Source: Escherichia coli
GTDB taxonomy: Bacteria; Pseudomonadota; Gammaproteobacteria; Enterobacterales; Enterobacteriaceae
DNA: 64,000 nucleotides
Reading direction: 5' to 3' (one strand)
NCBI RefSeq assembly: GCF_003018255.1
Contig: NZ_CP027440.1
This document shows, one piece after another, positions 62,980 to 63,033 of this stretch; positions within the stretch are counted from its first letter, which is position 1, and each line of letters begins with the position of its first letter. The notes below the pieces were generated by a model that was not told the origin of the DNA, ran no database searches, and worked only from the letters and a program-made list of their open reading frames with translations. The position numbers and the translations under genes were made by a program.

Positions 62980-63033
62980 TTCCCATAAACTCAGATTTAC
63001 TGCTGCTTCACGCAGGATCTGAGTTTATGGGAA
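62980..63033. promoter_or_regulatory. Inverted pair of candidate MelR sites in the melAB promoter
   Basis: Perfect 17-bp inverted repeat TTCCCATAAACTCAGAT / ATCTGAGTTTATGGGAA with centres ~37 bp apart, upstream of melA. Confidence 0.6.

What the first reader, a model, noticed from the sequence alone, without database searches (positions are those of the whole stretch)
62980..63033. Perfect 17-bp inverted repeat in the melR-melA divergent promoter
TTCCCATAAACTCAGAT and its exact reverse complement are separated by 20 bp, with centres ~37-38 bp apart. That matches the reported spacing of MelR sites 1 and 2, and would put the melAB transcription start about 25 nt before the melA ATG. The sequence between the arms (TTACTGCTGCTTCACGCAGG) could be the CRP site.
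Basis: partly seen in the sequence, partly recalled or inferred. Interest (0 to 1): 0.25.

Follow-up and report, generated by a model that had tools for sequence, protein, structure and literature searches.

The report
MelR operator pair at melAB promoter
The inverted repeat is real and is the well-studied pair of binding sites (sites 1 and 2) for the melibiose regulator MelR in E. coli, with a weak CRP site between them, so it is ordinary and already explained.

Summary
The perfect inverted repeat is 18 bp, not 17: 62979-62996 and 63017-63034, with a 20-bp spacer. It is the longest perfect inverted repeat in the 64-kb window and far beyond chance.

The window ends in the E. coli adiA-melR<>melA locus. 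The intergenic region is 282 bp, as in K-12. Anchors published in PMC2377442 map MelR site 2 exactly onto the right arm, which puts the melAB start at 63088, 24 nt before the melA ATG. These anchors are the melR -10 hexamer CATAAT, site 2 at -174.5 from the melR start, and melR starting 237 bp upstream of melAB. The same paper states that the consensus 18-bp MelR site, with G at positions 5 and 13, is found at sites 1 and 2, and that a CRP site (CRP1) lies between them.

In 35 Enterobacterales loci the pair always sits next to melR and/or melA. The spacing is 20 bp in 33 and 21 bp in 2. GGGA at positions 13-16 is conserved. The two arms vary independently and the spacer sequence is free, apart from a weak CRP-like signal centred on the dyad. 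This is the pattern of two protein-binding sites, not of a hairpin.

Verdict: correct reading of a textbook regulatory element. Already known, low interest.

The parts
62979..62996 (-). MelR site 1. The 18-bp consensus ATCTGAGTTTATGGGAAT reads on the - strand. Centre 62987.5, which is -100.5 from the inferred melAB start.
   Evidence: Perfect reverse complement of site 2. [quoted passage not shown] The figure -100.5 follows from my mapping and agrees with my recollection of Belyaeva et al. 2000, which is not held in the library.
62997..63016 (.). 20-bp spacer holding the weak CRP site CRP1. The 22-mer 62996-63017, TTTACTGCTGCTTCACGCAGGA, is centred on the dyad at 63006.5, which is -81.5.
   Evidence: [quoted passage not shown] The window 22-mer matches 5 of 10 CRP core positions. 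Across 27 distinct enterobacterial spacers the dyad-centred register averages 4.15 of 10, against 2.40 +/- 0.25 for shuffled spacers (0 of 2000 shuffles reach it).
63017..63034 (+). MelR site 2, ATCTGAGTTTATGGGAAT, with G5 at 63021 and G13 at 63029. Centre 63025.5, which is -62.5 from melAB +1 and -174.5 from melR +1.
   Evidence: Position anchors from PMC2377442: site 2 at -174.5 from the melR start, and 237 bp between the two starts.
62959..62976 (+). MelR site 1' (inferred position, centre -120.5), CTCTGCTTTTCAGGTAAC. It matches the consensus at 11 of 18 positions when read on the + strand, including G5 and G13.
   Evidence: PMC2377442 names site 1' as part of the site 1/1' pair. The coordinates are my inference from 20-bp spacing plus my memory of -120.5. 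The block CTCTGCTTTT is conserved across genera. The orientation is suggested by sequence only and was not checked against the published Fe-BABE data.
63037..63054 (.). MelR site 2' (inferred position, centre -42.5). It overlaps the -35 region and is occupied only when melibiose is present. The window carries a rare A at 63049.
   Evidence: PMC2377442: without melibiose MelR 'is unable to occupy site 2''. The coordinates are inferred. The block GGAAGnCGGAGGTTT is conserved across genera. The match to the consensus is poor: 8 of 18 on the - strand and 3 of 18 on the + strand, counted by hand.
62841..62858 (-). MelR site R, TTCTGATATTCCAGGAAA on the - strand, with G5 and A13. It overlaps the melR transcription start at 62851.
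   Evidence: PMC2377442: site R overlaps the melR start, has G at position 5 and a non-consensus A at position 13, and is oriented opposite to site 2. All three conditions are met by this 18-mer and register (read).
62882..62903 (.). CRP2, the CRP site that activates the melR promoter: GACTGCGAGTGGGAGCACGGTT, with core TGCGA-N6-GCACG. Centre 62892.5, which is -41.5 from melR +1.
   Evidence: [quoted passage not shown] The half-sites are kept while the N6 varies in divergent E. coli lineages.
62858..62863 (-). melR promoter -10 hexamer, CATAAT on the - strand. The melR start is inferred at 62851.
   Evidence: PMC2377442 gives the melR -10 as 5' CATAAT 3'. ATTATG is at 62858-62863 on the + strand.
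63088..63088 (+). Inferred melAB transcription start, with a 24-nt leader before the melA ATG at 63112. The likely -10 hexamer is CATGAT at 63076-63081.
   Evidence: Derived as 62851 + 237, and equally as site 2 centre + 62.5. No TSS data are available here. The -10 assignment is an inference from spacing.

Best explanation
The two arms are MelR operator sites 1 and 2 of the E. coli melibiose regulatory region. Each 18-bp arm binds one monomer of the AraC-family activator MelR through its two helix-turn-helix motifs. HTH1 reads the inner segment around G5 (TCTGAG). HTH2 reads the outer segment around G13 (GGGAA), one helical turn away. Because the two sites are inverted, the two monomers face in opposite directions.

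[quoted passage not shown] When melibiose is present, MelR can also occupy site 2', which overlaps the -35 region, and transcription of melAB starts at about 63088. Without melibiose, MelR at sites 2, 1, 1' and R represses the divergent melR promoter.

Shown here: the sequence, its register relative to the published anchors, and its conservation. Taken from the literature: binding, stoichiometry and regulation. Inferred: the exact coordinates and orientation of sites 1' and 2', and the melAB -10 hexamer.
For: The sequence is a perfect 18-bp inverted repeat and is unique in the window. The flanking genes are melR and melA.

PMC2377442 supplies the anchors: the consensus 18-bp site at sites 1 and 2 with G5 and G13; site 2 at -174.5; 237 bp between the two starts; melR -10 CATAAT; CRP1 between sites 1 and 2; CRP2 41 bp upstream of the melR start; and site R with G5/A13 in the opposite orientation. 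DNase I footprints in that paper show occupation of sites 1/1', 2 and R. Every anchor fits the window coordinates with no adjustment.

Conservation: 5398 of 5426 complete E. coli genomes carry the 56-bp element, one copy per genome at the median. Within E. coli, substitutions fall mostly in the spacer, with 0-1 per arm.

In 35 Enterobacterales loci from more than 12 genera, the pair lies next to melR and/or melA homologues. The spacer is 20 bp in 33 loci and 21 bp in 2. Positions 13-16 (GGGA), which the search pattern did not force, are 66-70 of 70 conserved, while positions 11-12 are free.
Against: Nothing contradicts it. There are four limits.

(1) No binding data were or could be generated here.

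(2) The primary papers with the footprints of sites 1 and 2 (Webster 1989; Belyaeva 2000; Grainger 2003) are not in the held library. The numbers -100.5, -62.5, -81.5, -120.5 and -42.5 are partly from my memory; only -62.5 is derivable from PMC2377442 (237 minus 174.5).

(3) The cross-species set was collected with a pattern that requires the inner 9 bp of both arms. It therefore shows conservation where the pair exists, not how often it is lost.

(4) The CRP site is a poor match to consensus (5 of 10 core positions).
Confidence: 0.97

Rival explanations
1. The inverted repeat acts as a nucleic-acid structure: an RNA hairpin (terminator, attenuator or processing site) or a DNA cruciform.
For: As single-stranded DNA, 62955-63058 folds to -27.3 kcal/mol, z = -8.35 against shuffles.
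Against: The repeat lies between the two divergent starts (melR +1 at 62851 reading leftward, melAB +1 at 63088 reading rightward), so neither known transcript contains it. There is no T-run, and no terminator-like site was found. Across 35 loci the arms vary independently: at only 13 of 103 variant outer-arm positions do both arms carry the same base, and only 1 locus has fully identical arms. So there is no selection for complementarity. A 20-nt loop of free sequence is also atypical. The good fold is a trivial consequence of two identical sites in inverted orientation.
Confidence: 0.01
2. It is a chance palindrome, or the terminal inverted repeats of a small mobile element (MITE-like), with no regulatory role.
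For: None beyond the fact that it is an inverted repeat.
Against: Expectation is about 6e-5 per window, and the simulated maximum arm is 14 bp. It is single-copy in E. coli genomes (median 1 place per genome). It sits in the same position relative to melA in more than 12 genera, 86-100 nt from the end of the matched pattern to the melA start codon. There are no target-site duplications and no extra copies in the window.
Confidence: 0.005
3. The arms are the two half-sites of a single palindrome-binding dimeric regulator other than MelR, for example a LacI/GalR-type repressor.
For: Perfect dyad symmetry is typical of operators bound by dimers.
Against: Centres 38 bp apart are too distant for one compact dimer. 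Each arm is itself asymmetric and bipartite (TCTGAG ... GGGAA, one helical turn apart), as expected for an AraC-family monomer with two HTH motifs. The literature assigns each 18-bp site to one MelR monomer. The pair co-occurs with melR homologues even where melA is absent (L010, L021, L043, L062, L063, L067).
Confidence: 0.01

Closest known systems
E. coli K-12 melAB/melR regulatory region: MelR sites 1 and 2 with CRP1 (Webster 1989; Belyaeva 2000; Wade 2001; Grainger 2003; Samarasinghe 2008 = PMC2377442)
   Same: It is the same element. The arms and the spacer are identical to K-12 MG1655 base for base. The intergenic length is the same (282 bp), as are the melR -10, site R and CRP2.
   Different: Only strain-level SNPs elsewhere in the intergenic region. 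These are the variable block 62918-62937, C for T at 62976 in site 1', and A for C at 63049 in site 2'. The last is a minority allele: 89 of 5399 genomes are identical over 63017-63090.
AraC at araO2/araI1-I2 with CRP in the araC<>araBAD divergent region
   Same: An AraC-family sugar-responsive regulator encoded divergently from its target operon. Multiple sites of about 17-18 bp, each bound by one monomer via two HTH motifs. CRP acts as co-activator. The regulator represses its own gene using distant sites. PMC2377442 draws this comparison itself.
   Different: In ara the activating pair I1-I2 is a direct repeat and repression uses a 210-bp loop between O2 and I1. In mel the two strong sites are an inverted pair flanking CRP, and repression is described as a four-MelR complex rather than a simple loop.

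Membership tests
MelR operator sites 1 and 2 of the mel regulatory region | The 18-bp sequence is identical at both sites, with G at positions 5 and 13 of the consensus | tested here: met
   ATCTGAGTTTATGGGAAT is present on both strands. G5 and G13 fit only this register. The criterion comes from PMC2377442.
MelR operator sites 1 and 2 of the mel regulatory region | Site 2 is centred at -174.5 from the melR start, with melR +1 237 bp upstream of melAB +1 | tested here: met
   melR -10 CATAAT lies at 62863..62858 (-), giving +1 at 62851. Then 62851 + 174.5 = 63025.5, the centre of the right arm, and melAB +1 is 63088. The melR +1 itself is inferred from the -10 hexamer, not measured.
MelR operator sites 1 and 2 of the mel regulatory region | Located between divergent melR and melA genes | tested here: met
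   ORFs and annotation. The same context holds in 35 Enterobacterales loci.
MelR operator sites 1 and 2 of the mel regulatory region | Physical binding of MelR (footprint, EMSA or ChIP) at these bases | not testable with these tools
   Reported for K-12 DNA of identical sequence in PMC2377442 (DNase I and EMSA) and in earlier papers that are not held.
CRP (cAMP receptor protein) binding site, CRP1 | A 22-bp site with TGTGA-N6-TCACA cores, notably G7 and C16 | tested here: inconclusive
   The dyad-centred 22-mer matches 5 of 10 core positions (T6, G7, C16, C18, A19). T6, G7, C16 and A19 are invariant in the 7 aligned E. coli sequences. Across genera the mean is 4.15 of 10, against 2.40 for shuffled spacers. 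By sequence alone this is a weak site; its function rests on PMC2377442.
Intrinsic terminator or structured RNA | The element is transcribed, and the stem is maintained by compensatory change or followed by a T-run | tested here: not met
   It lies between the divergent starts. No terminator-like site was found. The arms vary independently: 13 of 103 variant positions are shared.

The most novel reading that the evidence does not exclude
The most novel reading not excluded concerns this strain's rare C-to-A change at 63049 (-39, inside MelR site 2' and the -35 region). Together with the lineage-specific rewriting of the CRP1 spacer seen in other E. coli lineages, such changes could tune melibiose inducibility or CRP dependence differently between E. 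coli lineages. That would be natural regulatory variation layered on a fixed MelR site 1/site 2 scaffold. The inverted repeat itself is not novel under any reading.
Probability: 0.15. Interest if true: 0.2.

Novelty: already known. Interest (0 to 1): 0.05.

Why it matters
It does not change anything. It confirms that a reader working from sequence alone correctly recognised a classic, experimentally dissected promoter architecture: four MelR monomers plus one CRP dimer.

The modest added value is comparative. The strong sites 1 and 2 and their 20-bp spacing are kept across more than 12 enterobacterial genera. The spacer sequence drifts freely apart from a faint CRP register. The two arms evolve independently, which is a clear illustration of protein-site conservation as opposed to hairpin conservation.

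Tried and rejected
(1) A consensus promoter/terminator scan of 62750-63200 found nothing. This is uninformative for activator-dependent promoters and argues against a terminator.

(2) I tried to fetch the primary papers PMC125794, PMC1447455 and PMC146657. None is held. The supplementary sequences of PMC2377442 are not held either.

(3) A paper search on numeric positions (62.5, 100.5, 81.5) returned only irrelevant hits. PMC4308713 mentions MelR but gives no site data.

(4) I tried to fix the orientation of sites 1' and 2' by similarity to the consensus. Site 1' fits the + strand (11 of 18). Site 2' fits poorly in either orientation (8 of 18 on the - strand, 3 of 18 on the +). The published orientation (Grainger 2003) could not be checked, so it is left open.

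(5) Hairpin, chance-palindrome, mobile-element and single-dimer readings were considered and rejected, as set out under the rival explanations.

(6) Hit H12 (strain AQ15) is a scrambled assembly region of gene fragments and was ignored.

(7) I did not run the costly protein-based scan of genome contigs. It is biased towards loci that keep the inner 9 bp of both arms.

Full report
**1. The observation**

Reading the window gives the following:
- Left arm, 62979-62996: ATTCCCATAAACTCAGAT.
- Spacer, 62997-63016: TTACTGCTGCTTCACGCAGG (20 bp).
- Right arm, 63017-63034: ATCTGAGTTTATGGGAAT.

A script confirmed that the right arm is the exact reverse complement of the left. The repeat is therefore 18 bp, with centres 38 bp apart.

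It is far beyond chance:
- It is the longest perfect inverted repeat with a spacer of 60 or less in the 64-kb window. The runners-up are 14, 14 and 13 bp.
- In 100 first-order Markov simulations the longest arm was 9-14 bp. The analytic expectation for 18 bp or more is about 6e-5.
- The 18-mer with up to three mismatches occurs only at these two places, against 0.06 expected.
- The repeat finder extends the symmetry imperfectly to 42-nt arms, 62955-62996 / 63017-63058, 76% complementary.

**2. The locus**

The ORF at 61921-62829 (-) is a 302-aa AraC-family protein. An ORF running off the window end starts at 63112 (+). The 551 bp around the finding match 5400 of 5426 complete E. coli genomes, where the flanking genes are annotated melR and melA.

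In K-12 MG1655 the arrangement is adiA, melR (-), melA (+), melB, with a 282-bp melR-melA intergenic region. The window has the same length, and the arms and spacer are identical to K-12 base for base.

**3. Mapping onto published work**

The one detailed MelR paper held in the library is Samarasinghe et al. 2008 (PMC2377442). It states the following:
- MelR binds 18-bp sites. [quoted passage not shown] - Site 2 is centred at -174.5 from the melR start.
- The melR transcript starts 237 bp upstream of the melAB start.
- The melR -10 hexamer is CATAAT.
- CRP2 lies 41 bp upstream of the melR start.
- Site R overlaps the melR start, has G5 and a non-consensus A13, and is oriented opposite to site 2.

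In the window these anchors fall as follows:
- CATAAT is at 62863..62858 on the - strand, which puts the melR +1 at 62851 (an A on the - strand).
- 62851 + 174.5 = 63025.5, exactly the centre of the right arm.
- 62851 + 237 = 63088 is the melAB +1, so site 2 is at -62.5 and site 1 at -100.5.
- The dyad centre, 63006.5, is at -81.5.
- ATCTGAGTTTATGGGAAT has G at positions 5 and 13 only in this register.
- Site R maps to 62841-62858 on the - strand: TTCTGATATTCCAGGAAA, with G5 and A13, opposite in orientation to site 2.
- CRP2 maps to 62882-62903, with TGCGA-N6-GCACG centred at -41.5.

Every anchor fits without adjustment.

The values -100.5, -81.5, -120.5 and -42.5 agree with my recollection of Belyaeva et al. 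2000. That paper and the other primary papers could not be fetched.

**4. How it works**

The following is from the literature, applied to an identical sequence. Each 18-bp site takes one MelR monomer. HTH1 reads the inner segment (TCTGAG, G5). HTH2 reads the outer segment (GGGAA, G13), one helical turn away.

Without melibiose, MelR occupies sites 2, 1, 1' and R. It represses its own promoter and cannot occupy site 2'. [quoted passage not shown] Site 2', over the -35 region, is filled and melAB is transcribed.

The consensus promoter scan finds no sigma-70-like promoter here. That is in keeping with two activator-dependent promoters.

**5. Comparative evidence generated here**

Within E. coli:
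- The 56-bp element is present in 5398 of 5426 genomes, at a median of one copy per genome.
- 2066 genomes are identical to the window. Identity falls to 82% in the most divergent lineages.
- Alignments of representatives show that substitutions fall mostly in the 20-bp spacer and in a block between CRP2 and site 1' (62889-62960).
- Each arm carries 0-1 changes, at consensus position 3, 11 or 14.

Across species, a DNA-pattern scan of one genome per species used AACTCAGAT-N19-21-ATCTGAGTT and returned 66 loci.
- 35 usable loci are Enterobacterales: Citrobacter, Enterobacter, Klebsiella/Raoultella, Kluyvera, Kosakonia, Cedecea, Yokenella, Buttiauxella, Pantoea, Serratia oryzae, Salmonella enterica subsp. 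arizonae and diarizonae, and Escherichia spp.
- Every one has a melR and/or melA homologue beside the match.
- The spacer is 20 bp in 33 of them and 21 bp in two Citrobacter.
- Positions 13-16 (GGGA), which the pattern did not constrain, are conserved in 66-70 of 70 half-sites. Positions 11-12 are free.
- The two arms vary independently. Both arms carry the same base at only 13 of 103 variant outer-arm positions, and only one locus has identical arms.
- The perfect complementarity in E. coli is therefore not itself under selection. This is the signature of two protein-binding sites, not of a hairpin.
- The spacer sequence is essentially free. Even so, the CRP core match in the dyad-centred register averages 4.15 of 10, against 2.40 +/- 0.25 for shuffled spacers (0 of 2000 shuffles reach it).
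- Several genera have a clean TGTG at positions 4-7. This supports a weak CRP site in a fixed register.
- Two caveats apply. The sequences are phylogenetically related, and the set is biased by the search pattern.
- The flanking blocks corresponding to sites 1' (CTCTGCTTTT...) and 2' (GGAAGnCGGAGGTTT) are also conserved.

**6. Rivals**

- Structural role (RNA hairpin or cruciform). The predicted fold is good: -27.3 kcal/mol, z = -8.35. However, the element lies between the two divergent starts and so is not in either known transcript. It has no T-run, and its arms show no compensatory evolution.
- Chance or a mobile element. This is excluded by the statistics, by the single-copy status and by the fixed synteny.
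- A single dimeric palindrome binder. This is unlikely because the centres are 38 bp apart and each arm is internally asymmetric and bipartite.

**7. What remains open**

The exact coordinates and orientation of sites 1' and 2' are inferred. By similarity to the consensus, site 1' fits the + strand (11 of 18, with G5 and G13). Site 2' is a poor match either way. The published Fe-BABE orientations could not be consulted. The melAB -10 (CATGAT, 63076-63081) is inferred from spacing only.

**8. Verdict**

The element is the textbook pair of MelR sites 1 and 2 with CRP1 between them. It is already known, and its interest is very low. The only mildly new material is the comparative picture and a rare SNP in site 2' in this strain.

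Noticed in passing
window 61252-61254 (- strand), within adiA 59455-61725: adiA (biodegradative arginine decarboxylase) carries an in-frame stop codon. The translation reads ...MKYSDIHEYS*AAPGHQGG..., and the ORF listing splits the gene into ORFs of 157 aa and 566 aa. From memory, K-12 AdiA has Trp at this position. adiA therefore looks like a nonsense pseudogene in this strain, which would impair arginine-dependent acid resistance.
   Followed up: partly
window 63049: The window has A where K-12, O157:H7 and the B2-like strains have C. The position is -39 of melAB, inside the inferred MelR site 2' and -35 region. Only 89 of 5399 complete E. coli genomes are identical over 63017-63090. The possible effect on melibiose induction was not tested.
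   Followed up: partly
window 62889-62960 and 62997-63016: The melR-melA intergenic region is mosaic within E. coli. These two blocks are hypervariable between lineages: of the 9 differences in the 56-bp element in PBP5, 8 are in the spacer (10 and 8 in Rb-3). The MelR arms, site R, the CRP2 half-sites and the region downstream of the right arm are much better conserved. The divergent spacer reads CTATTGATGTGCCACTTAGG and keeps T6, G7, C16 and A19 of the CRP register.
   Followed up: partly
L010, L021, L043, L062, L063, L067 (Citrobacter spp., Buttiauxella gaviniae): There is a second melR-like gene, 77-81% identical to MelR, preceded by the same inverted operator pair (20-bp spacer; site 2 variant ATCTGAGTTAWCGGGAAT, GGGAGT in L010) but with no melA next to it. 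In L021 the divergent neighbour is a 159-aa ORF of low-complexity sequence. It may be a paralogous or orphan MelR-type regulator with potential cross-talk.
   Followed up: partly
L011, L017, L020, L023, L029, L033, L034, L037, L040, L052, L055, L061: This is by-catch of the pattern scan. Twelve Prevotellaceae/Bacteroidales contigs share an identical AACTCAGAT-N21-ATCTGAGTT stretch, with spacer ATCTGGCGAAGCATCTTTTGT or its reverse complement. There are no melR or melA homologues nearby. It is presumably a conserved gene segment or a repeat of that clade, unrelated to this finding.
   Followed up: no
L003 (E. coli AQ15, NZ_CP043487.1 4467167-4470316): In this 'complete' genome the mel region is a patchwork of short pseudogene fragments, including MelR, ProP, PmrB and CadC pieces. 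It looks like an assembly artefact or a scrambled region.
   Followed up: no
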